A stretch of 51,228 bases of DNA from Atractiella rhizophila (taxonomy: Eukaryota): NCBI GenBank assembly GCA_021432655.1, contig MU271513.1, positions 1 through 51,228 on the forward strand, read 5' to 3'. Of this stretch, positions 7,356 through 30,959 are shown in pieces. Position numbers and translations under genes: made by a program. How positions within the stretch are numbered: position 1 is the first letter of the stretch; each line of letters opens with the position of its first letter. Under the pieces are notes generated by a model, which was not told where the DNA came from, made no database searches, and saw nothing but the letters and a program-made list of their open reading frames with translations.

Positions 7356-7822
7356 GTTCAGTCTGTATTCATATTATTGTTCTTGCACCTAACAATGCTA
7401 TCGGTATGTTCCCTGGAGAAACTAACGCAAGAGAAATACCTAAGTTGGATGGATAGATGGATGTCGCATTGCGTGTCGGGGAGCTGCGAAGAAAGATGGC
7501 TTCATGATGACAGCGTGTTCATCATTGTTTCCTCTTTTCTGCTCTGCTGCTAAACTCAATTCTAGTTTCCCTCCATTGTTACAAAGAAAAAGAAAGTTTC
7601 TCTCAGCCTTCTAGTATACTACATTTGCAGGCGTGCAGCTGCCCATGTCTCGGTCACGAATGTGTATACAAAATTCCGCCAGCAAAGTGCCATAATTAGA
7701 TTTGAGCTGACTGGATTCATTAAACTGTTCTATAGCCCAATAAAATGCAAATTTTCAGAGGAAAGAGGTGCAAACAGAGAGTAAAGCAGTGTTTGGTTGT
7801 AGTTGTCTCGCTGAGTAAGGTG

Positions 7823-7920
7823 AAAAAAGTGACCAGACGGTGCTCCGAACCCATGGCTAGTTGGGGCCCCAACGCCATGGCGAACGGCCTCCGAGGTGGT
7901 AACCATTGAGCCAAGAACGC
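7823..7920 (-). ncRNA. Pol III type-2 (tRNA-like promoter) hairpin ncRNA, copy A of a 4-member family; not a canonical tRNA
   Basis: The minus strand reads GCGTTCT-TGGCTCAATGG (A box)...GGTTCGGAGC (B-box-like)...TTTTTT. It is homologous to the copies at 17938, 22406 and 23267. It forms a long hairpin (CCATGGC/GCCATGG, GTTGGG/CCCAAC) and has no acceptor or T-stem pairing. Confidence 0.7.
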
Positions 7921-7958
7921 AGAACGGTGTTTGCACGAAAAGTAACTATTGAACCCAG

Positions 7959-8013
7959 TATATATACCACAAATCAGTTTGTTTACATCTGTTTACATTC
8001 ATCTATGTTTACC
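7959..8013 (-). promoter_or_regulatory. Upstream elements of ncRNA copy A: TATATATA and repeated GTAAACA
   Basis: TATATATA at 7959-7966, TGTAAACA at 7980-7987 and 7990-7997, and GGTAAACA at 8006-8013 (minus strand). The same motifs occur at similar spacing upstream of the other copies. Confidence 0.55.
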
Positions 8014-8399
8014 ACGCGGTCGACATTAATCCTCCGAAGTCAACAACCTTTTGCTCCTTGCTGAGAGAGTATATAAGCAAGGTGCACCGCACTCTGCAGC
8101 ACTGGATCTGACTGGATACAGCAGGCGATTTCCTGAATTGAACTTGCGTTGCCAGCGGTGAAGGACAACAGTGTATGTTGTTATCTCCACCCCTGCACCT
8201 TAGGGGAAAGTGAATGAATGTCGTTTCCCATCTTTCGAACTCATTGATCGATGAAGCCTCTAACAAAGGAGGACAGCGGACTCCCGAGAGCAAGGATCTA
8301 TTCCACAGCAGGTATCTCCTGGGTATCCCACAGACAACAAGCAGCCTCCCTAAGCCCTCCTCCTCACGGCGCGATGCATCCGCTTCCCTCCAATATGCT

Positions 8400-10055
8400 T
8401 CACGAGCTCCTCCTGTTTCCCAAATCAACGATGAGAATCATGCTCAAGTTGTCACACCGAAACAAAGGTTGAAGCGAGAAGGGCAGAGAATGAATATCAA
8501 TGAATCTACGTACCATACTCCTCTTCCTTCTCTCTCCCTCTGTAGGGATGACTGGTGCTTCAGTTTTTGGTATCGCTCCAAGATTAACGATTGCGTTAGA
8601 CTGATCGCTTGACGCTTCTCCTTCCCCTGCTACTTCTCCTTCTCCTTCCACTGCTGCTTCCCCTTCAGCAGCTCCTTCTGCCGCAGAGTCGGACTCCTCA
8701 GAGTTCTCAGCTTCTCCCTCTCCCTCAGCTTCAGCTTCTCCTTCTTTCTCAGCTTCTCCTTCTTTCTCAGCTTCTCCTTCTTTCTCAGCTTCTCCTTCTT
8801 TCTCAGCTTCTCCTTCAGCTGCTCCATCCTCTCCTTCTGCGGCGCCTTCTTTGTTCTCTTCGGTGTTTTCCTCAGGCTCCTCAACGACTTCCTTCTCCTC
8901 CTCGTTGACAACTTCCTTATTATCTTCCACGACCTCCCCTTCGCCTTCAACATTCTCTTCCTTATCGACCACGATTTCGTCTCCCTCTTTTTTAGCAACA
9001 GCAGCGACAGCTATCGAGCAACATCAAATCAGTTTGATGTCCAGTATCGCTTCAGAGAGAATAATGGAGGGGAGTGATGGAGACATACGGTTCTGAACCA
9101 AGAACTTGTCTACTGAACTAGCGACGGTGAGGAGATTGAAATTGCCGAGGGTATTCTGGGTGAACCTAGCGTTGAATTTGATGACCTTCTTGACGGCGCT
9201 GAAAGTCTGGACGTCGATAGGCATTGGCTCTTTGGCGACGAAGAATGTGAGCCCTTCTGCACAGGGAGGGGTCGTGAGCGATCCGGTGTATTGGAAGATG
9301 TCACTCGATTCGAGGTGGGACACTACCTCCGAGAAGGAGAGTGCTCCAGTTTTGCTCACCGAACCTGGCACAGTGACGTCGGCAAGGTTTTCGAAGACGG
9401 ACGTGAGGAGGGAGGTGGTGCTTGATCCGTCGTCGACGAAGTCGAAGGGAACGGCGATCACTGCGAGTTCGCCATCTGTAAAAGGGCAATTGTCAGCTCA
9501 GTTCGCTGAGATGGGGAGAGAGGAGCGCACTGGGTCCCTCGTGTACGATATGCATCTCCATCACGCTGTACTCCTCCGCAATCCTATGCTCTTTGACCCA
9601 GGAACAAGTCAGTTGCGCTCTCCGACGATCAAAGAAGTGTGACAAAGAGGCTCACCAGAAGGCGTGTGAAAATGAAACTGCTTAACCTCAAACTCCACAT
9701 CCCCAACCGTCGTCTTCGCGCCTAATCCCTCCATGACGACCTCCACCGTGGTTCCAAGGTTCTCGATTTCGGCCTCCTCGACATCAGGAGCCTCGAAGAC
9801 GGGTTTGACCTCCGCGAGCCCGATCGTAGAATCGATGTTGATGGGCGACTGGACGGCGGAGGTGGCGCATGCGGAATTAGCGAGCGACAATCCTGCCCAG
9901 TTCAAGGGCCCTTGGAGGCCAGAGTAACCAAAGTTGGAGATGGCGACCGTGTTGGAGGACGTCAACTGGCGCTTCATGTGCGATGTACCGTGCATGCAGG
10001 AGGCAGCGACGAGAGAAGGGAGGACAATAGTGGCCAGAGTCTTGAATGAGAACAT
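8400..10055 (-). CDS. Secreted alpha-class carbonic anhydrase with a long Glu/Ala/Gly-rich C-terminal tail (multi-exon; 3' end uncertain)
   Basis: Signal peptide MFSFKTLATIVLPSLVAA, then GPLNW, QSPINI, QFHFHTPSEH (Zn His pair), EMHIVH (third Zn His, exon at about 9530-9590) and YTGSLTTPPCAEG. The acidic exon is ORF 8400-8972. Confidence 0.9.
8731..8816 (-). repeat. 18-bp coding minisatellite (about 4.8 copies) encoding (EGEAEK)n in the carbonic anhydrase tail
   Basis: The plus-strand unit TCAGCTTCTCCTTCTTTC starts at 8731, 8749, 8767 and 8785, with a partial copy at 8803. Confidence 0.9.
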
Positions 10056-11759
10056 CTTGACAGATTGAAGATTGAAGAAAAGGAGTGGTGATTGAAGTCA
10101 AAGAGAGGATCGGAGTCCTGCGCTGCAAGATGGGTGGACTGATGGGCTGCACGAAGGAAGATAAGCTGATATCCAAAGAGTTCCTGACCCAAACTTGTAC
10201 TGATAGGCGACACGGTCTGCCTTTTGAAAAAAAATACGAAAAGAAGGGAGGAGGGCAGTTGGAAGTCTGGCGGCTTAGAGGAAAGGAGAGGAAGAAAAAG
10301 CGAAGGAACAAGGGTTTTATACCCATCACCGGGCCCATCCCCAAAGATTGAAAGAAGTGTATCATAGAAACGCGCCATCTCTCGACCTCACTCCGGGATC
10401 CTGAACGCAGCGCAACAACGGATGGAATGAATGGAAAGCTGGACATCGTGACATTGATAGTAAATTATTCTCGACGCCTTGGCCGACCTTGGCAGCATTC
10501 GTCGCTGGTACCAAGTGCCAAGTTTCTTCACTCCCCTTTGCATCTCCGTTCTCTCTCCCGTCCCTTCCAGCTCTTTCCAATGTTTATGATAGATTTATAC
10601 TGGTTCTCGGGAACAGTATGCGCCAGCCAGTAGTGTGAATGTATGACAGCTTATCAAGCAGCTTTTTCATAAGCAATGGGCAGCAAATAATCTTAACCGC
10701 TAATGGGCAAAGTAGAGGAATTGCGCAAGCACTGGAGAAAGCATTGATATCAAGGAAAAAGATCGGGAGAAGTGAAGAACAAGCATGCCAAGCTCCCACC
10801 ACTCTCAAACGCGTCCTCACTCTTTCCAAACTGCGCTCCATCAATCGTTCCACCTGAGCATGGAGATGAAGCATTCTGATACCAGGTTGATTGTCTACTA
10901 GAATCTTACAAGGCCAGGTTCTGGAAATGTAAGTGTTGGAAATTGTTGGAAATGGAAGAAACAAGGTTTGAAGAAGTTGCCACGAACGCCAGAATCTCCA
11001 ACTCTAATAAGAATAAACAAGTGCAATCCAACCCATGTTCTCTGCCCAAACAACAAGATAGCCCTTTGAGGATCTTCAAGAATGGATCGTAGGGCATCCC
11101 ATGGGATCTGCATGGAAGGACTGGGTTGAACATGGCAGCAGTCAAGCATAGGAATCCAAATCCGTCGATTTCTCTTTCAGCTCGCCCAATCTCACGCTGA
11201 ACTCAGCAAGCAGCAATACCAGTGGCACGGTTGGATTTCCGCCCTTTTAAGCATCCGCATTCACTCGGCAATTCATCAGATGTTGAGATTGATCTGGGTA
11301 CATCGTGGTTTTCAAGATCAAAATCGAGATAGGCTTAAGTACGGTCCTTGATCGTCCTTCCTCTCCGCTGGATGAATGTCGAATGGACAAAGGGAACTTT
11401 ATGGTGTTCCCATCGCAGCGAGAAAAGAATGGAAGGAGGATAGACTGCCTTGACGGTTTGTCGGTTTGTTTGAATGAAGTCGGTGGGAACAAGGCGGTTC
11501 AAACGACCAGGTGCAAGGCCCTCCATCTTTCATCTTTCTTCCATCTTTGCCCAAACCACATTGGCACTTCAAAGTTTCTGTCCCATTTTCTAGAAGCAGA
11601 CGCTTCAAGGAATATAAAAGCAGCCCTTTCCTTGAAGAGTCTCCTCCATCAAGCGAAAAAAGGCAAGCTTTCTTCTCTTTATACCTTCTCCTCCTTCTCC
11701 TTCATCTAAGGATCTATACCCCTTCTTTCATCCCAATACCCGTCTAAACAAAAGCGAAC

Positions 11760-12218
11760 ATGTAAGCTTTCTCTCTGTCCTGCATCCAGTAACGAATGCT
11801 GATGTTCCATTGATCGAATAGGTCGGCTTACAATCTTCCCAACCCCACAAAGCTCTTCATCGGCAACCTCTCCTTCGTCACCTCCCACGAAACGCTCCGT
11901 TTGGTCTGTCTGAATTTCGGGAGCGTTCTCGACTTATGCATTATGAAAGGTAGGTCTTCCCTTCATCTATGCTGGGCTTGAATGCTGATGCTTATGTACG
12001 ATGCTGGAACAGACCAAGCGACCGGGAAACTCAGAGGATACGGTTTCGTAACTTATAGGTGTCTAGAGGATGCAGAGATGGCGAGGAGAGGGATGAACGG
12101 GATGTGTCTCGTACGTTCCCTGCCCTACCTTTCGCTGCACTCTCCGCTTCGGATCTGGCTGATGCCCTATTTGGGACCTTAGGACGAAAGGGTCTTAACG
12201 GTCGATTATGCTAAATAA
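11760..12218 (+). CDS. Small single-RRM RNA-binding protein (87 aa, 4 exons: 11760-11761, 11822-11949, 12013-12110, 12183-12218)
   Basis: Spliced: MSAYNLPNPTKLFIGNLSFVTSHETLRLVCLNFGSVLDLCIMKDQATGKLRGYGFVTYRCLEDAEMARRGMNGMCLDERVLTVDYAK*. RNP2 is LFIGNL and RNP1 is RGYGFVTY. All three introns are GT-AG with GCTGAT branch motifs. TATAAAA at 11613. Confidence 0.85.
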
Positions 12219-13183
12219 GCCAACTCCGAATCTGTAATCGGTTTCTCTTCCTCCCCGCCTCCTCTCTTCTCCTTCGCTCTTCTCTTCCCCTTCTGTCAAA
12301 GGTTTCGGGTCGCGATCCGGATCGGTAGCATCACGCACATAAATACCAAGCAGTCAGTTTATTCGTCCCATCCTTCTCTCATCTCATTTTACTCGCATAC
12401 ATACCTACATACGTATAAGTACCATTTCATTCCGTCCAATTCAAAATTCGCAGATCTTCGTCTTACCTTTCCATTTCTTACATACGTACCTACGTGCCGG
12501 TATTAATTTTTCAAAGTAAAAGTAGACCTTTTTCGCATTCTTCTTTCCTCGGTAGTATCCTCCAGGAGACTGCTGGATTGTTCGATGTGCCGAATGTTTT
12601 GTAGCCTTACGATTATGAGCAATTCGTACCGTCGTTCCTCAATTCTTGTGCCATTCGAGTCCGCTGACTTGCAATCCAACATTTACAGACTATTAACTCA
12701 AATAAGAGGGAGAGGGAATGGCGAGTGGAACAGATGGGGAAACATGAGTTACCAGAACTACAACATTAGGATTTCTTTATCGCCAGCGCGGCTGCATATA
12801 CGTACATCACGATTCGACACAAAACCGGAACAATTTGTTTCTCAACACGAACGACGGAATGTTACAAGTAGACCCATCCACTCAAAACATGTATTAAACC
12901 ATGGAATTGGGAGCCGCCTGAGGTCTTTGAGGGTCATGAAGAATGAACTGTGAAATCTGAACACTAGAGCTGGAGTCCACCCTTCTCATGCTTTCCATTC
13001 CATCCAGGAGGAAACGCGAACCAGACGATCATTGCATAATTAACTTTAGGGAACTGAAATAAAAGAAAGGGAAAGACGAAGGAAACAAACCTACAAAGTT
13101 GACGAAAGGCGAAAGACGACTTTCAGTTCAATCAACGCAACACTGCAAAAAAAGTGGTTGCCAATAATGATCGAAACGAATAT

Positions 13184-15432
13184 TCAATCTTTTCTCGATC
13201 CGGTGGGCCTAGAAAGAGCATCATTAAGGTTCCTCTGTCCTTCAGACGGCGTCGTCATCGACATTCCGGGAGGAAGAGGAGGGAGGGGACCTGTGAGCGG
13301 GGGGAGGTTCGCATTGGTGTCTGCCTTGGCATGGATCGTATTTCTGGCAGCGGATGCAGCGGTATCCTTCATGTTGCCCAAAGGACCCACATTACCACTC
13401 GTCGCCATCATTCCTGGTCCTCCGGCTTCTGCCAGCCCTCCGTAGCCAATTCCAGGGTTGGTGCTCGCATTTCCTCCTCTTCCCTGAGAAATGAGACCAT
13501 TTTGGTAATACAATCCCAAGCCGTACTCGCTACCCATTCTTCCTAGGTGATGTTGTTGGTAAGGAGACGTCAAGTAAGGTGCTCCGATCCCAGAAAGAGA
13601 AGACGGCACAGGGTTGGGAGATGTTGCAGGGTAAACAGAATGAGATGTTCTGTACGAAGCTGACCCAAAACCGATATTGGGGGAGTGATATGTATAGTAA
13701 GGATCATTCACCGAAAGTCCATCCATGCTTGGAGAACCAAGCCAAGATGGATTAGGAGAACCGACGGAGAGTACGGGAGAAGCGCCGAAGAGATGGTGTG
13801 GGATGTATGGGGAGCTCAGAGGAGAGCCGGAAAATTTGGCGCTTCTAACGCTGCCGATCGAAGACCAAGGAGAGGAGGTGGATCCAGGTGTAAAAGCTGC
13901 AAGGCTCTCTTGCGTCATTGGAGTGGACGGAGCGGAGCTGAAGTTCGACATTGGGGAGAAGGAACGGAAACGAGACCCGGGAGACCTGTTAGATGACCAG
14001 TTGTGGTTAGGGCTCTGTTTCAACCAATGCTGTTTAGTGAAATGGATAGAAGCGATGAAGAAAAGCTCACCACATCTTCTTTCGCAGCCCACCACGAGGC
14101 TCGAAGTCCCTTCCAGCCATTCAGAGCCTTGATAACTGTATCCGCATCCTCCCTCTTCTCAAACGTCAACTTCCCAGCCAACCAATCCCACTCCAAGACC
14201 TTTCCGCTTAGACAGAGCTCCTCCAATTTCTCCACAATCTCCTCCTTCTTTACTCCAGCCTCTCCGGTTGTCCCAACTCCCTCAAGGCAAACATTCCAAG
14301 TGAGAGCCGCCCAGCCAGCACTGTTGGGCTTGTTCATTTTCCTGTTGCTCGCAGAAGATGGAGGATCGAGAGTGAAAGACGATTTCTTGACATTCCTCGT
14401 TTCAGTCCTTACGATCGGATTGCCGGACCTCTGGACGAGAGCGAAGGATACGTCGAGTTGGTATGATCTGATGGTCGAATTATTGATTACCTTCTTTGCC
14501 GCCGCGGCTGCTTCAGGAGTAGCCATATCAATGAAAGCTCGACGTCTATTCTCCAGGTCGTACACTTGATCAACAATACGAACGGATGAATCAAGAGATG
14601 ACGCACCTTCCAACTCCGTCCAATGTAGCAAGAATACAACAATGAGCGACATCCCCGAATTTTTCGAAAAGCGCAATCAATTCTTCGGGCTTCATGTCCA
14701 AAGGCAAGTTCAAGATATACAGATTTCGTTGCTGTCCTTCAGGAATGGGGGCGGCGATGGGAGAGAGAGACAGAGCGGCGCCGCCCAGCTTGGGAGAAGG
14801 CATTGCGGACGCTGACATTCCGGAAATGGGCAAAAGCAAATTGGCATTGTCGACGTATGCGCCTGGAGCAGGGGTAGGAGGCGGCGTTCCCGTAGGAGGA
14901 GAAGCGTATTTGACATGTCTGCGCGCAGGTAGTGATGTCAGTAGATGTAGATGTCGAAGGTGGGGAGGAGACGCACATTCCCTTTCCAAAGAGAATTGTC
15001 TCATCTAGTTGTTCAGCAGCGCGTTTCGCATCTTCGGGTCGGGAGAAGATGAAGGCGACTCCAACTGGATTTGGCGCAGAGGAAAGAATAGTTCCTGTCG
15101 AATGAAGGTTATAGCCTGCACATGGGAGGCCGGGGATCTGTGACGAACCAAATGGCTTAAACAGGCTGAGAAGAAAATGTTCTTGCACTATTTCGATATT
15201 TCCTTCGTGAATAAAGCAGTTCCGGCGAGAGAAGAAGAAGAAATAACGGACCATCCTCTGGTATTCTCGTCACATAGACGGTTCTTTTCGCCACATCTCC
15301 AGAATCTTGAACTTCTTGAGCAGGAGCGACCAATCCGTTTGATATCGGCGCAGTGATATCAGGGATGCTGGGATCGCTTTCCTCAACGATTGACTCGAGT
15401 GGAGACACGATATTATCCACGTCAGGATTCAT
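13184..15432 (-). CDS. Multi-RRM RNA-binding protein (about 3 RRMs) with a Ser/Pro/Gly-rich C-terminus, multi-exon
   Basis: RRM-like segments RTVYVTRIP...AFIFSRPEDAKRAAEQLD, RNLYILNLPLDMKPEELIALFEKFGDV...AFIDMATPEAAAAAKKVIN...LDVSFA, and LTFEKREDADTVIKALNGW. TATAAAA near 15586-15592. Confidence 0.8.
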
Positions 15433-17859
15433 ATCGAATGCTGATAGAGATGAACTCGGTTAGCAGATTGTAGTATTCGGCCAAGATGTCTCGCAGTGAG
15501 AGGAAAAGGCGAATCGGTGGAGCAAGGCAAGGGCGGGTGGCAAGAGGGAAAGAGGGGGACTGGGGATTTGTTCTGGGGAGAGGGCTTTTATACGCGTCAT
15601 GTTGAGAAAGTGAAGTGAGACTGAGACGCGTTAAGCTTCGCTACTCGAGAGTGAGACATTCCACCATTTATTCTCCACGTGTCGGTTCCGATAACACGTA
15701 ATATTTCCCCGACGCTAGCATTAGTTCTCAATCAGCGGAGGCAGCCGTTTCTCCAGCCATTCCCATCTTCCCAGCTATCTACTCACTGTTTCCGTGAATA
15801 TTCTCCAGACGCATCCACGAATCGTTCTTTTCCTAGTAGTTAGCCAACATTTCAGGTGTCCTAGAGTGGTGAAAGACCTCGCTGACCTTTGCGCTCTCCA
15901 AAACTCTCAACATAGCAAGGGAAAAGGAAACTGAGTGACTGGGGAGGGAGACTCTTCAAGTTGCAGGAAGGCGTTCCCACCGCGTTTCCCAGACTTCCGC
16001 TTTCCCACAGCACGATACGAAGGTCGAGCCGTCGGTTCTTGGTGACCCCTTCATCGCGTCTTCTTCTGCCATCGGCTGCAGCATCGTGGTGAGTTATATC
16101 TCTAATAGTCTATCTTGCAAGATTCTCCGCTTGGCTCGACTCTGATTTGAGACCTTTTTGGGATCCAATCTTTCACATATTGATGAAGTCGCAGAAAAGT
16201 TAAGGAATAGAAGGAGGGGGAAATGAAATCATTGCCATCGGGTCTATTACGCTGATTTCTCTCTTCTTCCTTGGCAAATTTTTAGCCCTGAAAAGAAAGA
16301 ACCTGTTATACAAAGGATATTCATCCCTGACTCTCAGACCCGCTTTCCTGTGTATCATTTCAAAGTAATCGTGGGAAGGAATGCAGACAATGTCGAGTAA
16401 CCTCATCCGCAAACCACTTGTGGCATTTGAATCGCCAACCCTCTAGGCGAAACGCACCCAGCCGTTGGTAGAAAGGAGTGATGTATGAAGGCCAACAAAG
16501 ATGAAGATTGATGATGTCACTTGCAGGCCTTGAAACACCACAATCTGGACCAGACATAAAAATGAGGGCTCATCGACCAGTAGTCGGAGGGTTCCCCATT
16601 GCAAAGAAGAGTCGGCATCGTCCAAACCCCATACGGCGTGGGGATAAGAGACGCTCACGATGCCTCCATCTCATTTTGATCTGTTACGGCAGATTCGTCA
16701 CATTTTCAGCGGCAGCGTGTTCAATACGTGCAATTGGAAGAGTGCATTTCATATTGACATAGAAGGGAGAACGAGCAGTAGGGTAAGGGAAGGATGAATG
16801 AAACAATTAGCGCAGATGAGGGATACTGTAATTGCAAAGCTGTTACCTCTTGTACAAGCATTCCTGTGCACAAGGCCTTAAATCAGCTCCACCAGCTGGA
16901 CACTAGTTGTAGCTAGATCTAGTTGAAATGCTGAAACGATCTGAAAGGATGACGCGGAAACTTTGTCAGCTTCGTCTGCAGGTGGACTTCCGCCTGAGGG
17001 AAAATGGAAACCGCGCGTCTTTCCGTTACCGAAGATGGTCGAGGTTCAACGTGTTTGCTCACGGAATGGATAGACTCTTGCTCGACTTGCAAACGATAGG
17101 CACGACAACAAGCAGTGTGCTTTCGATCTGGCAATCACCAAAGGTCTGACTTTCACTGGCAAGGGAGGTCAGATGGGATGCCGTATGAAATGAAATAATT
17201 AGATGGTAGAACTGGAGGCAAGAGGATGAATGTGCTTGCGAATTGGGAGGTGGATTTGACATGGACAGGAGGATGCGTTTCAACAAAGCCTTCGCTCCAG
17301 GGGGACATTTGAGCAAAACGTAAAGAATGCGGAGGCGTAGCTGTTTGCCCAAACGAAAGTGCAAACGAAGGTGCTACATTTGCGAGAGCTCTCAATGATT
17401 TTACAGATGGGACAGATTGGTATCGACTTCATCCATTTGATCCCCAACGACATGCAAGACGACACACGTAGAAGGGCAAGTTTCCTCATGTCACAGCATA
17501 GAATGGAGAGAACAACTGAGCGTCTCTAGGATCCTGCTTGGGTCGTTCTGGTTGATTCAATGGGGCATTGCTCTTCCATAACTAGATGACAGCGCAGAAA
17601 ATTCTGCATACTACGGAGTAAAACCACCCACAGCATCATCTACCAAAAGAGCAAGTAAATGTATTTCCCAATCTCTGTACCTAGCATAACGAATATACAA
17701 ATGGTTCACGCACCTTGGCCAGTCCGGCTGCTCTTTCCGTTTACAGTCCAAATGCAGCTTCTGTTCATCAGGGACTTACTACAGTCTATTTATCCACAAG
17801 CTTTTAGCATCTGGGCGATGGTTGACTTCGGAAGATTAACGTGGCAATCTTTAAGCCAC

Positions 17860-17899
17860 TGTAAACAGACACAAACAAACCAATTTTGTGGTATATATA
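17860..17899 (+). promoter_or_regulatory. Upstream elements of ncRNA copy B (TGTAAACA, TATATATA)
   Basis: TGTAAACA at 17860-17867 and TATATATA at 17892-17899. This aligns with the upstream region of copy A (TTTGTGGTATATATA is shared). Confidence 0.55.
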
Positions 17900-17937
17900 G
17901 ATGGTTCTGCAGTATATTTTACACGATGCACCATTCT

Positions 17938-18035
17938 GCGTTCTTGGCTCAGTGGTAGACGACTCGGAAGCCGTTCGCCAGTCCTCGGGGGCCCCAACGA
18001 GTCCTGGGTTCGGAGCACCGTCTCGTCTCTTTTTT
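17938..18035 (+). ncRNA. Pol III hairpin ncRNA, copy B
   Basis: GCGTTCT-TGGCTCAGTGG (A box), GGTTCGGAGC (B-box-like), T6 terminator at 18030-18035. Stems AGACGA/TCGTCT, CCAG/CTGG and CTCG/CGAG. Confidence 0.7.
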
Positions 18036-18603
18036 CACCTCTGACAACTACAACCAAACAAAGCCCATCTCCCTTTTTACTTCCTTTTTTTGTATTGGTA
18101 ACTGCTTTCCTCTTTTTACATTCCATCTGAAGTGCTTACGAAGACCGCTGCTTTTTGCACCTTGTCGAATGTCAACATTCAGGATATTCCGATTACTGAA
18201 TGGAAGAATTGAACATTATGGGCCGGGGCAGGCAAGTTCCTGGGAGAGTGCATTGAAGTGAAATCCATAGTATCACTTTTACATGGTACTCTAGTATGAA
18301 GAGAGAAACGAAACTAAATGAAGGGGGATGGGAGTTGAGGAAAAAGCGAGAGAACGCAGAATGAGATGAAACGCTTTTTGACTTGTAAGGTTTTGTATAC
18401 AATTCCAAATCAGTGCACTGATCTCAGAAACAGTGGGGAATATCCAATCCTATAGACAAGTTTGAAGCTTAGAGAGATTATATTTGAACAACAGACCAAT
18501 CCATGTTGAATTCGATCGACCAAGATTTAAATAGCTAGGAAGATTGTCGGGAATTGTAAGAATATCATGGAGCATGGTACACAGGAAGCCAGAAGCGGTT
18601 GCG

Positions 18604-21600
18604 TTATCCAAGGAGGGCCCTGCCGATTTTCTTCTTTGCTCGAAAGACTTCAAACTTTGCACCAACCTTGAAGCTATCGAGACCTGCTCCAACTTGTCAG
18701 CTCAGTTAACCAGTAAAATAGTTAAACAATGACTTCTTCTCAAGCCGTAATTCATGTCCTTGAATCCCTCACTGAGGGATCCAGTCCCTCGGAGCTCGTT
18801 ATTTTCTGTGGCGCTCCGTATCATACCGGCAGGATCGGTACTCTTCTTCCTCTTTGTCTTTGGCTTCTTCCCACCTCCTCTGGTGCTTTGACTATGACCC
18901 TTCTCGCCACCCGACGGATCGAAGTCATGACCCTCTTCTGGAATGCCATACAGGTCCACTGATTGCTTCGACGGTGTACTAACAGCAGTTTCTCCCTTCT
19001 TCCCAAGGAAGTTGCTTTCGAGCACCGGCGGCGGCAGAGAATCGTCACTGTCGTCGTCGCGGCCAACGTCATAACCCCCTGCGGTGTCGTTGTTGAAGTC
19101 TCTCCTATCGTACTCTTCCTCCTCTAGCGGAGCCCGGCTTAGAAGGCCGTCATCACCACGATACGCTCCAATTGCCATCGCAGACGAACGACTACGCCAC
19201 CTTCCCCCGTCCTTCGCAGTCTCCTCTAACCGGCTGAGATCCATGGAGGCTCGTTGAGCTCGTTCGACATCAGAATCATCGATTCGAGAACCGACATGCA
19301 TTCGCGACGGTACGGAAGAGACGCTTCCGACACCCAAGGAGGCATATACGGATCGTTTGTCCAGTTTCGACGGGGACGTCGAAGAGGTTGACGGAAGGGA
19401 GGGGTTGTCTCCATCGCCAGTGGATATGGAAGTCTTCCGTTGAGCATTGGGATTGAGGATAGACTGACGCTTTTCTTTTCGAATAGTAGCTTCCATGAGG
19501 GACGACTTCACGGAATTTCCGCGATTGGGATCGACACGCAGTAGGTCATTTCGAGCATCGCTTTTCGTGTTCCCTGCCCTTTGCTCAGCAATTCATATTG
19601 CACTAGTCAAGGTGTGCTTACCCCATAACCGATCCCCAGCACTTGTATCTGTGACGTTCTTCGGACGATAGGAAGGGGCAGTGGGGACCAGTTTCTCAAA
19701 GCGTAGGTCCTTTCCTACAGTTCTTGGTGCAACGGGGACAACGAGTTGAGGGGTATAAGATGAGGATGATATGCTGGCTGCTCGAAGCAGACCTCCTTGG
19801 AAACCTCCACCCCCTCCACCTCCGGATAAAAGTGGCGACTTCATGGTATCCGAGGCCAGTCTACCCCGCCCTCCACCGAAGGTGGTAGAGGAGGTTGACA
19901 CGCCGGAGGCGTAACGTGAGAGGGGAGGTGCATTGTCTGATGCGACGCGGTTCTTTGACTCGTATCCACTACCACCATAATGTCGTCCACTCATTCGCTC
20001 CAGGCGCTCGCGCTGGCGTTGTTCTCGTAATCGTTCCCTTTCTTCCCTCTCCGCTTGACGATCGCGAATCGACTTCGGACTGCCCCTCCGAGGTGCCGAG
20101 TTGAAGGAACCGCTGCCATTCCCTAATGTTGAAGTGTATGAATTCTTCCTATGGTTCATTACAGCCGGGAATCTTTCGCCAGAGGAGGAAGATGAGGCTG
20201 AAGATGCAACGGATTCTGAGTCGGACGTGGTTCGTTTCGAGTTACGTCGTGGGAGATTTGGGGTCGCTCCACGAAACTGTGTATCTGTGAATTTGGTCAG
20301 CAACTGTGTAGTGAACAAATGCTCTTTGCAAAAGCATCCGAGTAATCAGGAGCGCTCATGTATAAGAAGAGAGGCTTGGAATGTTAGCTCTCCTCTGTAC
20401 TAAATGTAGAAACCTTCGCAACTCTGTCATATAACAAACCATGCAGTGAAACACGTCACGCACATTCAAGGGGCTCCTGGCTGCCACCATCATGTTTTGT
20501 AGCTGGATCGTTTGCTAGGTTACACTGTTTCATGAACCGTTCAACGAAGCTTCATGGCTCGCGAACTCACATCCGCTCAATGATACGACTTTAGCTTTAT
20601 TGGTGAAGGAATGGGACATCTCATATAAAGCTTTCCGGTCAAACGTTTCCGCTCGTCTAATCAGCGCATACCTAACTAAGGCTAGAACGCCGCACTTGCA
20701 CTCTCTATCACTTCTTGTTTGTTGGCCACTGGCAGACCTGATCCTACCTTGCGGCAGGGATCAAACACTTAAGTCTGCTATCCACAACTCTGGAAGAGGC
20801 TGAAGAGTATTATGAATGTTTCTATGATGCGTAACAGGTTGTTCACACCTCCCGCACAGAATTTGTCGTAAGTAGTTTAATACATCCAGTAACTAAGAGC
20901 ACAAAGCCCAGATGATGCGATAGAGCCTCGTTTGCACCGTATATGTGAAGCGTTCGGACTCGCAGCACAGAACACATCGAGCACATCCACCAACTTTCGA
21001 GGTAGATGCAAGAACAGGAATAAAGCAGACATTGTTCTTCCACCAGAACCCGCGATATGCATCTATGCACGAGTATTACGCATAGTGAATCTAGAGGCAC
21101 ACTTCCAAATGCTTCCACCGAGCAGTGACGCAACGGCCGCTTGGCTCCAGCTCTAACACGCCCCTCTACTGTGGGCAGCAAATGTCAACACCCGGAGGCG
21201 TTAGCAAGCAGTTAACTGTGAAATGAAATGTGAATGAATGCGAAAACCAAAGGGAGAAATATGGAGTGAAAACATTGTGTGATGAGAAGTGGCTTGGCTC
21301 TCCGCCGGCGGTTCACTAAATCCGACGTTTGTATTTGGCAAGCAGCGGCATTTTAGCTACTGAGTCTCCGCCTGAAATCGCCTCGATAAGAAAGATGGAA
21401 GATGAAGGTAGCAGCAATGTAAACCGCTGAAAGAGACATCTTCCTTCGCTCAAAACCTCTCCATACTTCGGTGGCAGAAAGGAAGGTAGACATACGTTCA
21501 AGATCGTGTTCGATCCCTTCTAGCTCCACATCCCTCCTCCCACCTCTCACATTCCCGGGCTTTGAGAGTTCATCTTCCCTCTCCCTCCTCTCTCTCCGCG

Positions 21601-21816
21601 TTCCAAGCTTTGCTCCCAACTTGGTGTGATGTAGGGTTCCTTTCGAGTCCGTGTATCCCACTGGATCATCCACACATACTCAGCTAATTTTCCACCGCAC
21701 AAACGGACAAAAAGGTATATACCGGGCACTGGAGAAGCGGAGGGCTTGACAAGCTTCGTCCGTGAGGAAGACTGAGAGGTGTACGAGGTCGGAGTAAGAA
21801 GGGTCTGGGTAGTCAT
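18604..21816 (-). CDS. Hypothetical low-complexity (Ser/Gly/Arg-rich, probably disordered) protein, about 5 exons
   Basis: ORFs 19593-20318 and 18702-19511 join in phase through GT-AG introns. The last exon ends SLDSFKVGAKFEVFRAKKKIGRALLG* (TAA at 18604-18606). The 5' exons from ATG 21816 join in phase across a 1211-nt intron (20285-21495), but this 5' model is less certain. TATA-like sequence near 21877-21889. Confidence 0.6.
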
Positions 21817-22405
21817 TTCCTTGGGTGGGTCTCATTCGTCTGCAGGCATGAATATGGCCAGGAGATGAGAAGATATTATAGAATATATAGTATGATAGCG
21901 AGTTGGCAGGGAGCGGTGGTCGATGTCGGAGGCATGCAGTGTGAGCGTGAGTGAAAGAACCCGCATGTCCGGAAAAGGGAGCGGCCGAAGTCACGTGGTG
22001 TCAATGCACTCCTGCTGCGTCCAAGTTTTCATGACAAGCAGCACTCAGCTCAGCGGAGGGTCACAGCCAACTCCTCCGTATGTGAATCCGGAGAGCGAGC
22101 TCTGAGGATTTGAAGTGGGAAGACTGTCGAGCTGACTTATGCATCGCAAAGAAGCATCATGTTATGTTCCGGATGAAAGCATCATCTGTGGATGTTATCG
22201 GATAGCTGATACAACATGAGATGAGTTTGGTTTGCGAATAGAATACAGTAACTTTTAACTTGTACACAATGGAGGTTCGTCATGTTGACATCGGAGCATT
22301 AACATTCTCCACATAGTGCTCGGTCCAAACAAGACAAATAGATGTAAACAAGAGGAAACTTTAGTAAATGTACCTGGTTTCAAGTGCACAGGTATTGCCA
22401 TTTAT

Positions 22406-22500
22406 GCGTTCTTGGTGTAGTGGTAGAGACGTCATCAGGGTAGCTTCCTCGAGGGCCCCAACGATTCCTGGGTTCGAGTTGCGCCAGTAGGTCTCTTTTT
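22406..22500 (+). ncRNA. Pol III hairpin ncRNA, copy C
   Basis: GCGTTCT-TGGTGTAGTGG (A box), GGTTCGAGT (B box), T5 at 22496-22500 and a backup T7 at 22517-22523. Closing stem AGAGAC/GTCTCT and shared GGGCCCCAAC core. Upstream TGTAAACA at 22343. Confidence 0.65.
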
Positions 22501-23266
22501 GTTGCTCGACAGTGGCTTTTTTTAGGCTTGTACCCTGCTTGTATAATGAATTCTTACTGTGAATCTTATGCGAACAACACTTAAGTCGGCAGAATTGAGG
22601 ATACGAAGCACAAATTTCCAAATCATGCAGTCATTCCACTCTTCTAAACTAAAAAGATGACAGTAACCCAACAGTCTCCGTGTCACTGATCCCTTCTACT
22701 CGCATCTACAACACATATTTCTCACTTAAGACCACTCATTACAGCACTCCAGGAGACAATGATGTATTTGAATGGTACCTGCAGAGATTACAGAAGATGC
22801 AGTGTGAGCGTGAGTGAAAGAACCCGCATGTCCGGAAAAGGGAGCGGCCGAAGTCACGTGGTGTCAATGCTCTCCTGCGCTCAAGTTTTCATGACGAGCA
22901 GCACTCAGCATGAGGATCACAGCCAAGTCCCTCCGTATGAGAATCGTGAGAGCGAGCTCTGAGGATTTGAGATGGAAAGACGGTCGAGCTGATTTATGCA
23001 ATGCAAAGAAGCATAATGTTATACTCCGGATGAAAGCATCATCTGTGGATGTTATCGGATAGCTGGTATACGGCATGAGATGAGTTTTTTGGTTTGCGAA
23101 TGGAATACAGTAACTTTTAACTTGTACACTGGAGGGTCGTCATGTTGACATCGGAGCATTAACATTCTCCACATGATGCTCGGTCCAAACTAGAATAAAT
23201 AGATGTAAACAACAGGAAACTTTGGTATATGTACGTGGTTTCAAGTGCATTCGTATTGCCATTTAT

Positions 23267-23369
23267 GTGTTCTTGGTGTAGTGGTAGAGACGTTATCAGG
23301 TAGCCGTTCACCAGTCCTCGAGGGCCCCAACGAGTCCTGGGTTCGAGTTGCGCCCGGAGGTCTCTTTTT
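23267..23369 (+). ncRNA. Pol III hairpin ncRNA, copy D
   Basis: GTGTTCT-TGGTGTAGTGG (A box), GGTTCGAGT (B box), T5 at 23365-23369 and a downstream T9. Stems AGAGAC/GTCTCT, CCAG/CTGG and CTCG/CGAG. Upstream TGTAAACA at 23204 and GTATATGTA at 23225. Confidence 0.7.
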
Positions 23370-25194
23370 GTTGCTCGACAGTGGCTTTTTTTTTGGCTTG
23401 TACCCTGCTTGTATAATGAATTCTTACTGTGAATCTTATGCGAATAACACTTAAGTCGTCAGAATTGAGGATACGAAGCACAAATTTCCAAATCATGCAG
23501 TCATTCCACTCTTCTAAACTAAAAAGATGACAGTAACCCAACATTCTCCGTGTCACCGATCCCTTCTACTTGCATCTACAACACATATTTCTCACTTAAG
23601 ACCACTCATTACAGCACTCCAGGAGACAATGATGTATTTGAATGGTACCTGCAGAGATTACAGAAGAAATGGATGTCACAACAATATGAGCAGGCTTAGA
23701 ACTGAATCTGATCGATCACACGGTATCGTCGTGATAAACGAACCTCGTCTCCTTCGGATTCTCTGGCGCGTATCTCACGTATCTATGCTCCACAATCCAA
23801 ATTTCCATCCATCAGAACTATGAGGAGCGAATACACTCCAAAGAACGGAAGTGGAGGATATGTAGAGGTAGACGAACCGATCGTTATCCGGCGGCAATTC
23901 CTTCTTCGTACAGCTCGCCAACATGCTCTGTAAACTAAGACAAATCGAGATCTAGACGTCCAATCCATCTCTTTGTTGGTCGAAGAGACATGATTTTGGG
24001 GGAAAACGGACGGTGTTTAGGACCGGCGACCAACCTGTCCCTAATATGCTCGCGCAGATGTGACCGTTCGTATATACGTGTGGGTGCTACATCCATCCAT
24101 ATCCCTCGTTAATACGATCTGACTACGGACGGAAACGAGGAGACGGACGACAGGAGGCTTGTATGGCGGAGTGGTGAGAAAGGTAACTTGTGGAGAATCG
24201 ATTGGGTATTGTCTTAATCCTTCCCATCAACACAGATGCCAGCAACACACAACCCTGAAGGAAACGCACTACGATCGATTGAATGAGAGCGTGTTCGCGT
24301 GAGAGAGAATGGGAAGAACTGACCGGTGAAAATTTGAATTTGAGAGCAAAAGTCTCTACCTCACAAGACGCACGCAAGAGAGAAGGATCACTGCCTGTCC
24401 TTCAAGTTGTCTAGATGAAAGACCCACCTCCTCGGTACACAGTCTCCCCTAAGACCTTCACTTCCACCGTCCACTCTGCCAATGTTTCGGAGGTCAACAA
24501 CCGTATGCCTTCTGGCGCTGACGACTGAAGCTCGTTCAGTTCCTTGGTCAGCCGACGGGTGGAGAGTGAGGCCATGGGTTCTTTCTTTCTTCTTCAGTAG
24601 GCACTCGGGAGGTATACTATCAGTCGTTTCGCCTGTGGATGAGAGAGATCAGCGGCTGTTCGTCGAAGCTTTTGAGAAATGTAAGGAAACAAGGAGTGAG
24701 CTGTGCACATATTCAAGCGTACCAGTGAGGATCCGACAGATTACGGTGCGGTCGATTCATTGTATCCATACCGCACACTCTTTTATTGTCTATCTATAAG
24801 ACAGTCATAATGAAAAGGAGTCACAGTTAACACGAGACCCAAGGCCAGGCATTGGATCCCGGTTTCTGGTGGGGAAATAGGCAGAAGTGAAGCTGGGTTT
24901 CTCCATGAGATCGGGTAGACGGGAAGCTCACCTAGGGTAGTTGAATACCTGTCCTGTGTTCTTTCTACTTTGCTTGATGGTGGTTGGATTGGACGGACGG
25001 ATGCAGATGAACGTACACTGATAAGACCAAATGAACTTTATTTGCAAGCGGGAACCACGTAATATGAATCCCAAAAAACGACCACCTTCGCTTTCTCCCT
25101 TTTCTCACTTTTTCGCGCTATTTTTCTTGGATCCTTTCTACTCCAAGTTCAGGACCTCAACGTTAAGCAACAACTTGACTGTATCTATGACCCT

Positions 25195-29409: not shown

Positions 29410-30959
29410 TTAAGCTTCGGTGACGCTAGCAGACAATGGTTAGCATAGAGGAACGTAGGAAGCGACAGAGTAACGTACGTCCACCATTGCTCTTTGTCAG
29501 TGGGGTCATAGTCCACCATAAGGGTAGAGCGAGCATCAGCGAATGCAGCAATCTCATTTCCAGAGATGGCCCTTGTGGTCATGTTCAAGCTATCTCCCCC
29601 AGTTCTCCCATCAGTATCTCAAACAATTTCGAGGTAGAATTGATAAGAATAACGCACATGTGATCAACGACAATGATAGCGTAGGCCTGTTGACCCCTCT
29701 TCTGCAGAGGGTTGACATTGACATTCATTCCAGCGTGGGACCTCCTGACTTTATGCGCGAGCCTTGATTTGACGACGTTCCTGCACTCCGGGTGGTCATC
29801 TAAATATTCAGGGTGAGCCTTGAGGAACGAAGCAGGATGACGGCAAGGAGGCTCTTCTGCCAGCCCTTTGCATTCTGGGTGTTTGCGGTAGAACTCCTTC
29901 GTGCCATGGCGGAAGATCCAGTCAGGGTTCTGCATCCCCTCCAAAGTCAGCTTGGATCGAATAACAAGGAGATACGGAGCACCTTGTCACACTTGCCACC
30001 AGACGAGGAACCATCATCGGAGCTGTTGTCATCGGAGCTCCCATCGTCCTTAGAATCGGAATCGTCCGCCTCTTTAACGACTTTAGCGTTGCTCTTGATT
30101 GAGGCCTTTCTCTCAGACGAGTCGGAGTCGGATCCTGACTCTCCTACAGGGACGAAGAGCCACCACTGCTTGTCGGGCTCTGCGTCCTACCAATTAATAC
30201 AATGTTTGGCTTGAAAAGAGAGAATTGAAAGCATACCGAGCCCATGCTCGTCTTGGCAGCCGGGGCCAACCTAATCAAACTTGAGTAAATGGAAGGATGG
30301 AATAGAAGGGTGAATTTGCCTGGCAAACGTAGGCAACACCGAACTTATCGGTTCCACTGTCATAGTCCCACTGCGACGCGAGAGCCTTGCATGAAAAGTG
30401 TAATTTAGATAATCTCCATCGTGAGCAAAAAAATAGCGACATGCCTTGTTAGAATCAGCATTCCTGATTCTCGTGGATCCATCATTGTTGGGGTTGGAGA
30501 GAAGCTCAAAGACATCATCCGCCCTCGGCTGGTCGACGGAAGAGGACATCTTGGACAAAATGGTGGATGGACTGTCATCGTCTGCGAGATCACCGTTGAA
30601 TTTTGAGAAAAATCTCTTTAATATATGAAAGAAGATAACACACCAGGGTACATGTTTGGTTGGTCCGTGTGCGTGTAAACCTGCACAATCCCCACTTGGT
30701 TACGATCTCAGAGAGATGACGTGGAAGAAAGCAACAAACGAGGGTTTTGCCGGTTCCAACATTGGTGAGTTTGTAGTTGCCATCAAAAGGCACAGCTTGA
30801 TCCTTTTCATCATGTCAGTACAGGAGATAGAATACCAGCCGAAAAGAAAAGACGAACGAATAAGGTGCCTGCTACTCTTCGGTTATCGACGATTCCCTGA
30901 GCATTTGCAGAGATAGCAGCGCCGAGGATGGCGAAAAGAATGTTGTTTGAAGATATCAT
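29410..30959 (-). CDS. Secreted hypothetical protein, ricin-B/beta-trefoil-like, with an Asp/Ser-rich linker and an HPE..HPEC insert; multi-exon
   Basis: Signal peptide MISSNNILFAILGAAISANA, then FDGNYKLTNVGTGKTL, QxW-type motifs KQWWLFVPV and EQWWTVTEA*. The exons join through GT-AG introns. The lectin assignment is an inference. Confidence 0.6.

What the first reader, a model, noticed from the sequence alone, without database searches (positions are those of the whole stretch)
7823..23369. Unannotated family of four ~100-nt Pol III hairpin RNA genes (tRNA-type promoter, not tRNAs)
SEEN: four homologous units at 7823-7920(-), 17938-18035(+), 22406-22500(+) and 23267-23369(+). All share GYGTTCT-TGG(CTC/TGT)ARTGGT (A box), a GGGCCCCAAC core, TGGGTTCG(G/A) (B box) and a T5-T6 terminator. 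They cannot fold as cloverleaves: there is no 3' acceptor partner and no T-stem. Downstream of the A box they form one long imperfect hairpin closed right at the U-tail. Compensatory changes are visible between A and B: basal ACCA/TGGT vs ACGA/TCGT, and apical CCAT/ATGG vs CCAG/CTGG. C and D use AGAGAC/GTCTCT. KNOWN: an internal A/B box plus oligo-T defines Pol III type-2 genes, and Pol III-made small-RNA precursors exist (Neurospora milRNAs, BLV pre-miRNAs, adenovirus VA RNA). INFERENCE: this is a structure-conserved, probably tRNA-derived ncRNA family, possibly milRNA/Dicer substrates or protein-binding RNAs. I do not recognise it as a known family.
Basis: partly seen in the sequence, partly recalled or inferred. 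Interest (0 to 1): 0.88.

Follow-up and report, generated by a model that had tools for sequence, protein, structure and literature searches.

The report
Four tRNA-derived Pol III-type RNA genes
A fungus-like genome stretch carries four related ~225-base modules that look like genes for a small, hairpin-shaped RNA made by RNA polymerase III and descended from a tRNA; they match no catalogued RNA family, and whether they are expressed is not shown.

Summary
The four units sit where stated and are paralogs. A composite A box / B box / T5 pattern hits exactly these four sites, against about 0.01 expected. None is a tRNA (ARAGORN 0). None matches Rfam 15.

Each unit is the 3' part of a ~225-bp module. 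Three upstream blocks are conserved: GTTGACNTCGGANNATTAA at about -120 (4 of 4 window hits), GTAAACA repeats, and a TATA box 48-53 nt before the A box.

Support for the hairpin is moderate. All four fold as one unbranched hairpin closed at the U-tail, which 4-12% of shuffles also do. The closing stem differs in sequence between A/B and C/D but pairs in both (p 0.004-0.07). Folding energies are ordinary, RNAalifold does not recover the hairpin, and unit C looks decayed.

The best reading is a lineage-specific, tRNA-derived Pol III small-RNA gene family with a mixed promoter, analogous to BC1. Expression, genome-wide copy number and conservation in relatives could not be tested.

The parts
7823..8044 (-). 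Module A: upstream block GTTGACTTCGGAGGATTAA 8026-8044; two ATGTAAACA 7990-7998 and 7980-7988; TATATATA 7959-7966; A box 7903-7913; GGGCCCCAAC 7860-7869; B box GGTTCGG 7845-7851; T6 7823-7828
7823..7936 (-). Predicted primary transcript A, about 110-114 nt. The start is inferred about 30 nt downstream of the TATA box and is not measured.
   Evidence: geometry; fold; inference
17821..18035 (+). Module B: GTTGACTTCGGAAGATTAA 17821-17839; GTAAACA-like repeats at about 17860-17877; TATATATA 17892-17899; A box 17945-17955; GGGCCCCAAC 17989-17998; B box 18007-18013; T6 18030-18035
17922..18035 (+). Predicted primary transcript B, about 112 nt (start inferred)
   Evidence: inference
22284..22523 (+). 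Module C, probably decaying (8-nt deletion in the 5' arm): GTTGACATCGGAGCATTAA 22284-22302; ATGTAAACA 22342-22350; TAAATGTA 22365-22372; A box 22413-22423; GGGCCCCAAC 22453-22462; B box GGTTCGA 22471-22477; T5 22496-22500; second T7 22517-22523
23144..23394 (+). Module D: GTTGACATCGGAGCATTAA 23144-23162; ATGTAAACA 23203-23211; TATATGTA 23226-23233; A box 23274-23284; GGGCCCCAAC 23322-23331; B box GGTTCGA 23340-23346; T5 23365-23369; second T9 23386-23394
21934..23667 (.). Tandem segmental duplication (21934-22797 and 22797-23667, 91.5% identity over 881 aligned columns) that created the C/D pair

Best explanation
The four loci are paralogous copies of a small-RNA gene transcribed by RNA polymerase III. 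The gene descends from a tRNA gene but no longer encodes a tRNA.

Inferred mechanism:
1. TFIIIC binds the internal A and B boxes.
2. TFIIIB is placed on the conserved TATA box 48-53 nt upstream of the A box.
3. Pol III starts about 11-16 nt upstream of GYGTTCTTGG and stops at the T5/T6 run. C and D have a second T7/T9 run about 20 nt further on.
4. The ~105-115-nt product cannot form an acceptor stem or a T arm, so RNase P and RNase Z processing is not expected.
5. The product is predicted to keep a 5' segment containing the invariant GUUCUUGG. The rest folds into one long imperfect hairpin whose closing stem abuts the U-tail and whose tip presents the invariant GGGGCCCCAAC.

I take the RNA to act as a stable structured RNA or RNP scaffold, as BC1 RNA does. 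BC1 is a tRNA-derived domain converted into an extended stem-loop and driven by upstream TATA plus internal A/B boxes.

Shown here: the sequence elements, their spacing, their conservation among diverged paralogs, and the shared hairpin architecture. Inferred: transcription, the transcript ends, RNA stability and the function.
For: - Promoter signature: the composite A box / B box / T5 pattern occurs 4 times in 51 kb, only at the units, against 0.00-0.01 in 200 simulations.
- Upstream conservation: GTTGACNTCGGANNATTAA has exactly 4 hits (up to 3 mismatches allowed), each 117-124 nt upstream of a unit. 0.44 are expected and 0 of 100 shuffles reach 4. GTAAACA repeats and a TATA box sit at fixed distances.
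- Selection-like pattern: A/B and C/D flanks are otherwise unalignable. Downstream identity is 24-26% and the 3' 25 nt are 32-40% identical, while the unit core is 56-80% identical and B against D is 80%.
- Homology limits: A and B align over only about 255 bp at 74%.
- Geometry: the TATA-to-A-box spacing of 48-53 nt matches yeast SNR6 (TATA -30, A box +21; recalled, not from a call).
- Closing stem: it differs in sequence (AGACGA/UCGUCU, ACCA/UGGU, AGAGAC/GUCUCU) but pairs in all four. Duplex energy against 4000 random window k-mers gives p = 0.068 (A), 0.004 (B), 0.070 (C) and 0.020 (D).
- Architecture: all 4 MFE folds are one unbranched hairpin with 6-8 closing pairs. Shuffles with at least 4 closing pairs and a single loop number 60, 44, 42 and 18 of 500.
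- Not a known RNA.
- Precedents: BC1 is described as derived from a retroposed tRNA-Ala with upstream and internal promoters (PMC7072442, passages). Neurospora milR genes use Pol III with TATA-like elements and T clusters (PMC3547838, passages).
Against: - No direct evidence of a Pol III transcript. The only RNA data are assembled contigs, probably poly(A). They cover unit B and the 3' two-thirds of unit A as part of long contigs continuous with the convergent neighbouring genes, and give zero depth over 22207-23288, which holds all of C and the first 22 nt of D.
- MFE z-scores are unremarkable: -0.77, 0.11, 1.00 and -0.19 without the leader, and -0.64, -0.96, 0.01 and -0.87 with it.
- RNAalifold gives a weak consensus without the long hairpin.
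- The predicted 5' hairpin (leader against A box) is not better than random (p 0.24-0.52).
- C and D are no more alike inside the unit (80% in the core, 92% in the 3' part) than in their flanks (89-96%). There is therefore no sign of purifying selection since that duplication, and C carries an 8-nt deletion.
- There are only four sequences, in effectively two or three lineages, so covariation has little power.
- No relatives were found. 0 of 14 metagenome pattern hits resemble the family, and there were 0 hits in prokaryote genome contigs. No fungal genome collection was available.
Confidence: 0.55

Rival explanations
1. These are non-functional relics. A tRNA-derived repeat or pseudogene, or a small mobile or SINE-like module, was copied locally by DNA duplication and is now drifting. 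The hairpin is a by-product of quasi-palindromic sequence.
For: - C and D arose by an ordinary 865-bp tandem duplication.
- The unit is not better conserved than its flanks in that pair, and C is decaying.
- Folding energies are ordinary.
- The arms are quasi-palindromic direct repeats: GCCATGG twice in A and AGTCCT twice in B and D. These could arise by templated mutation rather than selection (read directly).
- All four modules share a sharp 5' homology boundary at GTTGAC.
- tRNA-related SINEs exist in Aspergillus fumigatus (PMC5063351, search listing and start of abstract only).
Against: - About 120 nt of upstream sequence with TATA and two other blocks is conserved with the unit, which retroposition would not carry.
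- There is no A-rich or LINE-like tail. The unit ends in a T-run at a fixed distance.
- I saw no target-site duplications or terminal inverted repeats at the A and B module ends (inspection).
- Conservation is strongly block-wise, and the closing stem keeps pairing despite full sequence turnover.
Confidence: 0.2
2. The function is at the DNA level. The modules are TFIIIC/TFIIIB-bound sites, comparable to tDNA or ETC sites. They act as boundaries or as roadblocks that end the convergent Pol II transcripts, and the RNA is incidental.
For: - A, B and D each face the 3' end of a convergent gene.
- In run X9 the contig continuous with the minus-strand gene (stop at 18604-18606) ends at about 17933, 5 nt beyond the 5' edge of unit B.
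- The contig continuous with the plus-strand gene (stop near 7355) ends at about 7891, inside unit A.
- Promoter blocks are the best-conserved parts.
- Roadblock termination at Pol III genes in yeast is recalled, not checked here.
Against: - Contig ends are not transcript ends (see the caveats printed).
- The contigs read through the B box, so a roadblock at the TFIIIC-bound B box is not indicated.
- This reading does not explain the invariant GGGCCCCAAC or the maintained closing stem.
- It rests on two loci.
Confidence: 0.12
3. The hairpin RNA is a Pol III-made precursor of microRNA-like small RNAs, processed by Dicer or another nuclease as for Neurospora milRs. This is a specific version of the main explanation.
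For: - The units have a TATA box, a T cluster and a hairpin, as described for Neurospora milR-1 to milR-4, some with putative A and B boxes (PMC3547838, passages).
- They form an unbranched hairpin of about 75 nt.
- Units A and B are antisense to transcribed 3' regions of neighbouring genes.
Against: - The stems are short and interrupted: about 24 pairs spread over arms of about 38 nt with many internal loops.
- The arm sequences are not conserved between A and B/D.
- No small-RNA data were available.
Confidence: 0.12
4. The conserved upstream blocks are a Pol II promoter (GTAAACA is the forkhead consensus, recalled). On this reading the tRNA-like stretch is simply the start of longer Pol II non-coding transcripts.
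For: - TATA lies 41-46 nt before the unit, and there are forkhead-like repeats.
- X9 contigs begin at or near the 5' part of units A and B and run hundreds of nt past the T-runs.
Against: - Those contigs are continuous with the convergent genes' coding exons or 3' regions, so they are more simply mRNA 3' UTRs.
- C shows no RNA contig cover and D none over its first 22 nt (zero depth in bins 22207-23288).
- This reading does not explain the intact A box, B box and T-run at fixed spacing.
Confidence: 0.06

Closest known systems
BC1 RNA (rodent brain cytoplasmic RNA)
   Same: BC1 derives from a tRNA gene and is made by Pol III from internal A/B boxes plus an upstream TATA-like element. Its tRNA-like domain folds as an extended stem-loop rather than a cloverleaf (PMC7072442, passages and the cited reference title).
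   Different: There is no sequence homology, and BC1 is a single-copy animal gene. BC1 has an A-rich centre and a unique 3' domain, whereas here the hairpin runs to the U-tail. This family has four local paralogs and two further conserved upstream blocks.
Neurospora Pol III-transcribed milR genes (milR-1 to milR-4)
   Same: Both are from filamentous fungi and intergenic. Both have TATA-like elements, a T-cluster terminator and a hairpin precursor of roughly 100-170 nt (PMC3547838, passages).
   Different: milR-1 is reported to lack A and B boxes. No sequence comparison was possible because the milR sequences are in figures that are not held. No small-RNA evidence exists here.
Canonical tRNA genes and tRNA pseudogenes
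   Same: The A box sits at +8 of the conserved core, there is a GGTTCGR B box and an oligo-T terminator, and the 5' 20 nt are tRNA-like.
   Different: There is no acceptor 3' strand, no D-stem partner, no anticodon arm and no T-stem. ARAGORN finds 0 genes, and the Rfam tRNA model gives no hit even at E up to 10.
tRNA-related SINEs of fungi (for example AfuSINE2)
   Same: Both have a tRNA-derived head with A and B boxes and are short.
   Different: SINEs have target-site duplications and a 3' tail, and they do not carry upstream promoter sequence. Here about 120 nt upstream is conserved and no TSD or tail was seen. The paper was seen only as a search listing.
Vault RNA, Y RNA, EBER and VA RNA (Pol III RNAs with mixed promoters)
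   Same: They are of similar size, with A/B boxes and/or upstream elements, a helical rod-like fold and a 3' U-tail (recalled).
   Different: There is no Rfam hit to any of them. In vault and Y RNAs the 5' and 3' ends pair, whereas here the 5' ~20-35 nt are outside the main hairpin. The partner proteins are not known in filamentous fungi (recalled).

Membership tests
tRNA | Cloverleaf with acceptor stem, D, anticodon and T arms | tested here: not met
   ARAGORN finds 0 genes in the window, and 0 with introns allowed at the default threshold. Lowered thresholds give only noise (8, 98 and 163 calls). There is no Rfam tRNA hit at E up to 10 on any unit.
Pol III type-2 gene | Internal A box (TRGCNNAGTGG-like) and B box (GGTTCGANNCC-like) 30-60 nt apart | tested here: met
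   Present in 4 of 4 units. The A-to-B pattern followed by T5 occurs 4 times against 0.00-0.01 expected. The B box matches GGTTCGR only, and the 3' TCC is absent. The consensus sequences are recalled.
Pol III type-2 gene | Oligo-T terminator shortly after the B box | tested here: met
   T6 in A and B and T5 in C and D lie 16-18 nt after the B box. C and D have a second T7/T9 run.
Pol III type-2 gene | Transcription by Pol III (occupancy, inhibitor sensitivity, 5' triphosphate) | not testable with these tools
   Only assembled RNA contigs were available, and they cannot show strand, ends or polymerase.
SINE / retroposed repeat | Target-site duplications, a 3' A-rich or LINE-derived tail, and no shared upstream sequence | tested here: not met
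   Upstream blocks are shared by 4 of 4 modules. The units end in a T-run. No TSD was seen at the A and B module ends (inspection).
SINE / retroposed repeat | High genome copy number | not testable with these tools
   No genome is held for this window. There are only 4 copies in the 51 kb.
Structured ncRNA family | Significant covariation supporting a consensus structure | tested here: inconclusive
   There are 4 sequences. 4 pairs have double changes, a count reached by 36 of 500 shuffles. 75.8% of cells pair, against 34-47% with slid partners. The closing-stem duplex gives p 0.004-0.07. The RNAalifold consensus is weak.
microRNA-like precursor | Discrete 19-25-nt products that depend on Dicer or Argonaute | not testable with these tools
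   No small-RNA data.
Known Rfam families (vault, Y RNA, 7SL, U6, snoRNAs and others) | Score at or above the family gathering threshold | tested here: not met
   0 of 4227 families match in the whole window. At E up to 10 there are only two chance hits, neither a sense-strand match to a unit.

The most novel reading that the evidence does not exclude
This is a previously undescribed, fungus-specific class of Pol III small RNA. It was born from a tRNA gene and remodelled into a 5'-tailed long hairpin. It is driven by an unusually elaborate mixed promoter: three conserved upstream blocks, including forkhead-type sites, plus A and B boxes. That promoter would make it a regulated RNP component or small-RNA precursor, possibly acting on the convergent genes it overlaps.
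Probability: 0.3. Interest if true: 0.7.

Novelty: new member of a known kind. Interest (0 to 1): 0.55.

Why it matters
Few Pol III products other than tRNA, 5S, U6, SRP RNA and RNase P RNA are known in filamentous fungi. A tRNA-derived hairpin RNA with conserved upstream control elements would be a fungal counterpart of BC1-type exaptation. It would also add to the Pol III-dependent small-RNA precursors reported in Neurospora. The conserved upstream blocks could define a Pol III promoter type in this lineage, and could be tried as compact promoters for guide-RNA expression. If the modules prove silent or merely decaying, they are an ordinary local repeat.

Tried and rejected
- tRNA, including intron-containing, permuted or split forms: rejected. 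ARAGORN found none, and manual reading found no acceptor or T-stem partner before or after the T-run.
- Any Rfam family: none.
- Relatives elsewhere. The metagenome scan with GGGCCCCAACN6TGGGTTCG gave 14 loci. All sit in unrelated GC-rich sequence that looks bacterial and coding by eye, and 0 of 14 have the A box or other family features. The prokaryote genome-contig scan gave 0 hits. No own genome is held. Earlier-findings look-ups returned nothing.
- Extra copies in the window: none beyond the four. The weak hit at 30212-30252 was inspected and dismissed.
- Read evidence. Public runs hold only small shares of the stretch and are contigs, so they cannot show a small RNA, its ends or its strand. 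The absence of cover over C and the start of D says nothing about expression.
- A 5' hairpin between leader and A box appears in all four MFE folds but is not better than random k-mers. It is kept only as a possibility.
- A telomerase-template reading of CCCCAAC was considered and dropped, because this is a fungus-like window and the units have tRNA-type promoters. This step rests on recall only.
- Coding potential was rejected, because 4- and 8-nt indels between copies break all frames.
- Literature searches found no description of such a fungal family. They cover only the held open-access library.


Full report
**1. Observation**

They align with each other.

All four carry these blocks:
- GYGTTCTTGG overlapping an A box (TGGCTCARTGG in A and B, TGGTGTAGTGG in C and D)
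- an invariant GGGCCCCAAC
- TGGGTTCGR
- a T-run, T6 in A and B and T5 in C and D

How far this exceeds chance:
- GTTCTTGGNNNARTGGT with up to 2 mismatches has 5 hits, 4 exact in the units and one two-mismatch hit at 19720. 0.64 are expected, and 0 of 100 shuffles reach 5.
- A composite pattern (A box, 30-60 nt, GGTTCGR, up to 40 nt, T5) hits 4 times, only at the units. The mean over 200 first-order Markov simulations is 0.00-0.01.
- GGGCCCCAAC alone is not significant: 5 hits against 2.18 expected, and 7 of 100 shuffles reach 5.
- A profile of the four units finds no further copy in the window. A weak partial hit at 30212-30252 was read and does not look like a copy.

**2. Not a tRNA, not a catalogued RNA**

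- ARAGORN finds no tRNA in the window, and none with introns allowed at the default threshold. Lowering the threshold yields only noise: 8, 98 and 163 calls.
- Rfam 15 gives 0 matches at gathering score over the whole window.
- At E up to 10 the Rfam results are:
  - around B: nothing
  - in the C/D stretch searched (22300-23450): one chance hit at 22674-22702, between the two units
  - at A: one chance hit on the opposite strand
- Reading the sequence, the 5' GCGTTCT has no complementary 3' strand before or after the T-run. The bases flanking GGTTCGR cannot form a T stem.

**3.

Aligning 260 nt upstream of each unit shows three conserved blocks.
- GTTGACNTCGGANNATTAA has exactly four hits in the window, even allowing 3 mismatches. 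Each lies 117-124 nt upstream of a unit start. 0.44 are expected, and 0 of 100 shuffles reach 4.
- GTAAACA-type repeats lie at about -95 to -80. AGATGTAAACAA is exact in A, C and D, and B has a degenerate copy plus a neighbouring TGTAAACA.
- A TATA box (TATATATA, TAAATGTA or TATATGTA) starts 41-46 nt before the unit and 48-53 nt before the A box.

That TATA-to-A-box spacing equals that of yeast SNR6 (TATA -30, A box +21; recalled). A short leader motif, CCRTT, is also conserved.

**4. History of the copies**

- C and D lie in a tandem duplication, 21934-22797 and 22797-23667, at 91.5% identity.
- A and B align over only about 255 bp at 74% (7790-8044 with 17821-18060).
- Between the A/B pair and the C/D pair, only the unit core and the promoter blocks are alignable.

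| Region | A or B against C or D |
|---|---|
| Downstream flank | 24-26% identity |
| Last 25 nt of the unit | 32-40% |
| Unit core | 56-80% (B against D: 80%) |

B and D are almost identical across the apical 45 nt. This block-wise pattern is what selection on promoter elements and on part of the RNA would give. Gene conversion between B and D is an alternative.

Against constraint, the C/D pair is not more alike inside the unit than outside. The core is 80% and the 3' part 92%, against 89-96% in the flanks. C has an 8-nt deletion in the 5' arm, and C is probably decaying.

**5. Structure**

The z-scores are -0.77, 0.11, 1.00 and -0.19.

With a 16-nt leader, all four MFE folds show two elements:
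- a 5' hairpin, in which the leader pairs with the 3' half of the A box and GUUCUUG forms the loop
- one unbranched long hairpin that closes at the U-tail

The z-scores remain ordinary: -0.64, -0.96, 0.01 and -0.87. RNAalifold on the MAFFT alignment gives only a weak consensus (-8.9 kcal/mol). It pairs GGGCCC with GGGUUC and does not recover the long hairpin.

Mapping B's hairpin onto the alignment keeps 17 of 24 pairs in A, 11 of 24 in C and 17 of 24 in D. Overall, 75.8% of cells pair, against 34-47% when partners are slid, and 25 of 500 shuffles reach that value. The structure was taken from B, which favours it.

Two tests of my own:
- **Duplex energies against 4000 random k-mers from the window.**
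  - The leader/A-box duplex is no better than random (p 0.24-0.52).
  - The closing stem is better than random: p = 0.068 (A), 0.004 (B), 0.070 (C) and 0.020 (D).
  - The closing-stem sequences differ between lineages (ACCA/UGGU, AGACGA/UCGUCU, AGAGAC/GUCUCU).
- **Shuffling the hairpin segment (mononucleotide shuffles).**
  - Shuffles with at least as many closing pairs number 45, 8, 9 and 8 of 500.
  - Shuffles with a single-loop hairpin and at least 4 closing pairs number 60, 44, 42 and 18 of 500.

I read this as moderate support for a conserved architecture: a 5' tail plus one long hairpin abutting the U-tail. It is not support for a pair-by-pair conserved fold.

One feature is unexplained. 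In each unit the 5-7 nt before GGGGCCCC repeat the 5-7 nt before GGGTTCG (GCCATGG in A, AGTCCT in B and D, TTCCT in C). The arms are therefore quasi-palindromic direct repeats. In C both copies carry the same G-to-T change, which breaks rather than preserves the hairpin. Templated mutation could thus mimic compensation.

**6. Surroundings and RNA evidence**

The window is fungus-like. It has short GT..AG introns and a patatin-NACHT-TPR protein. The units are intergenic.

Run X9 consists of spliced RNA contigs from a near-identical strain.
- One contig (depth 157) runs from about 17933 across unit B and on past 18599. It is continuous with the 3' region of the minus-strand gene, whose stop is at 18604-18606.
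- Another (depth 27) runs from below 7600 to about 7891, covering the 3' two-thirds of unit A. It lies downstream of the plus-strand gene ending near 7355.
- Bins 22207-23288, which hold all of C and the first 22 nt of D, have zero depth.

These are most simply long 3' UTRs of convergent genes read antisense through the units. Contigs cannot show strand, ends or a small RNA, so they neither prove nor disprove Pol III expression. No differences from the window were listed inside the covered parts of A and B, while several lie in the flanks. The difference tables were truncated, so this is only a hint.

**7. Explanation**

The best-supported reading (confidence 0.55) is a lineage-specific family of Pol III small-RNA genes derived from a tRNA gene, with a mixed promoter of upstream blocks and TATA plus internal A and B boxes. 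Their ~105-115-nt product is a 5'-tailed long hairpin with a U-tail.

The closest analogue in logic is BC1 RNA. BC1 derives from a tRNA-Ala retrocopy, has both upstream and internal promoters, and has a tRNA domain converted into an extended stem-loop (PMC7072442, passages). In fungi, the Neurospora milR genes show that Pol III with TATA-like elements and T clusters makes hairpin precursors (PMC3547838, passages).

Rivals:
- neutral relics or a small repeat (0.2)
- DNA-level TFIIIC/TFIIIB sites acting on the convergent genes (0.12)
- milRNA precursors, as a special case of the main reading (0.12)
- Pol II promoters (0.06)

**8. Limits**

There are four sequences in two or three lineages. No genome of this organism or its relatives was available. 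The metagenome scan returned only unrelated hits, 0 of 14 family-like. No strand-specific or small-RNA reads were available. Genome-wide copy number, orthologue conservation and expression remain open.

**9. Verdict**

This is a real, non-random feature with a convincing Pol III type-2 signature and an unexpectedly rich conserved upstream region. It is not a tRNA and not in Rfam. Structural conservation is moderate and function is unproven. It is a new family within a known kind of gene. Interest 0.55.

Noticed in passing
window 21934-23667: There is an 865-bp tandem duplication (21934-22797 and 22797-23667, 91.5% identity). It also duplicates part of the promoter/5' region of the minus-strand gene and the 3' flank of the E2-like gene.
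   Followed up: partly
window 20284-21496: Contigs of three runs (X9, X1, X2) skip 1211 nt with CT..AC ends. This is an unusually long minus-strand intron for a genome whose other introns here are 48-86 nt.
   Followed up: no
window 18097-18184: The X9 strain lacks 86 nt here (replaced by one A) and has an extra C at 18070, just downstream of unit B. No difference was listed inside unit B, though the tables were truncated.
   Followed up: no
window 8400-10250 (-): A highly covered gene (X9 depth up to about 3500) encodes an acidic E/K/G-rich repeat protein. There are in-frame 12- and 24-nt length differences between runs at 8719 and 8761.
   Followed up: no
window 40492-44220 (+): A single-exon 1242-aa ORF has patatin, NACHT/STAND NTPase and TPR domains. 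This is a fungal NLR-type architecture.
   Followed up: partly
units A-D, arms of the hairpin (for example 17979-17986 and 18000-18006): In every unit the 5-7 nt before GGGGCCCC equal the 5-7 nt before GGGTTCG (GCCATGG, AGTCCT, TTCCT, AGTCCT). This is concerted change of a direct repeat, which the hairpin model alone does not explain.
   Followed up: partly
units A, B, D: leader, 5' arm and 3' strand: Three similar pyrimidine-rich segments recur in direct orientation (CACCRTTCTGCG in the leader, GCCGTTCRCC in the 5' arm, GCACCGTCTSG before the T-run in A and B). The meaning is unknown.
   Followed up: no
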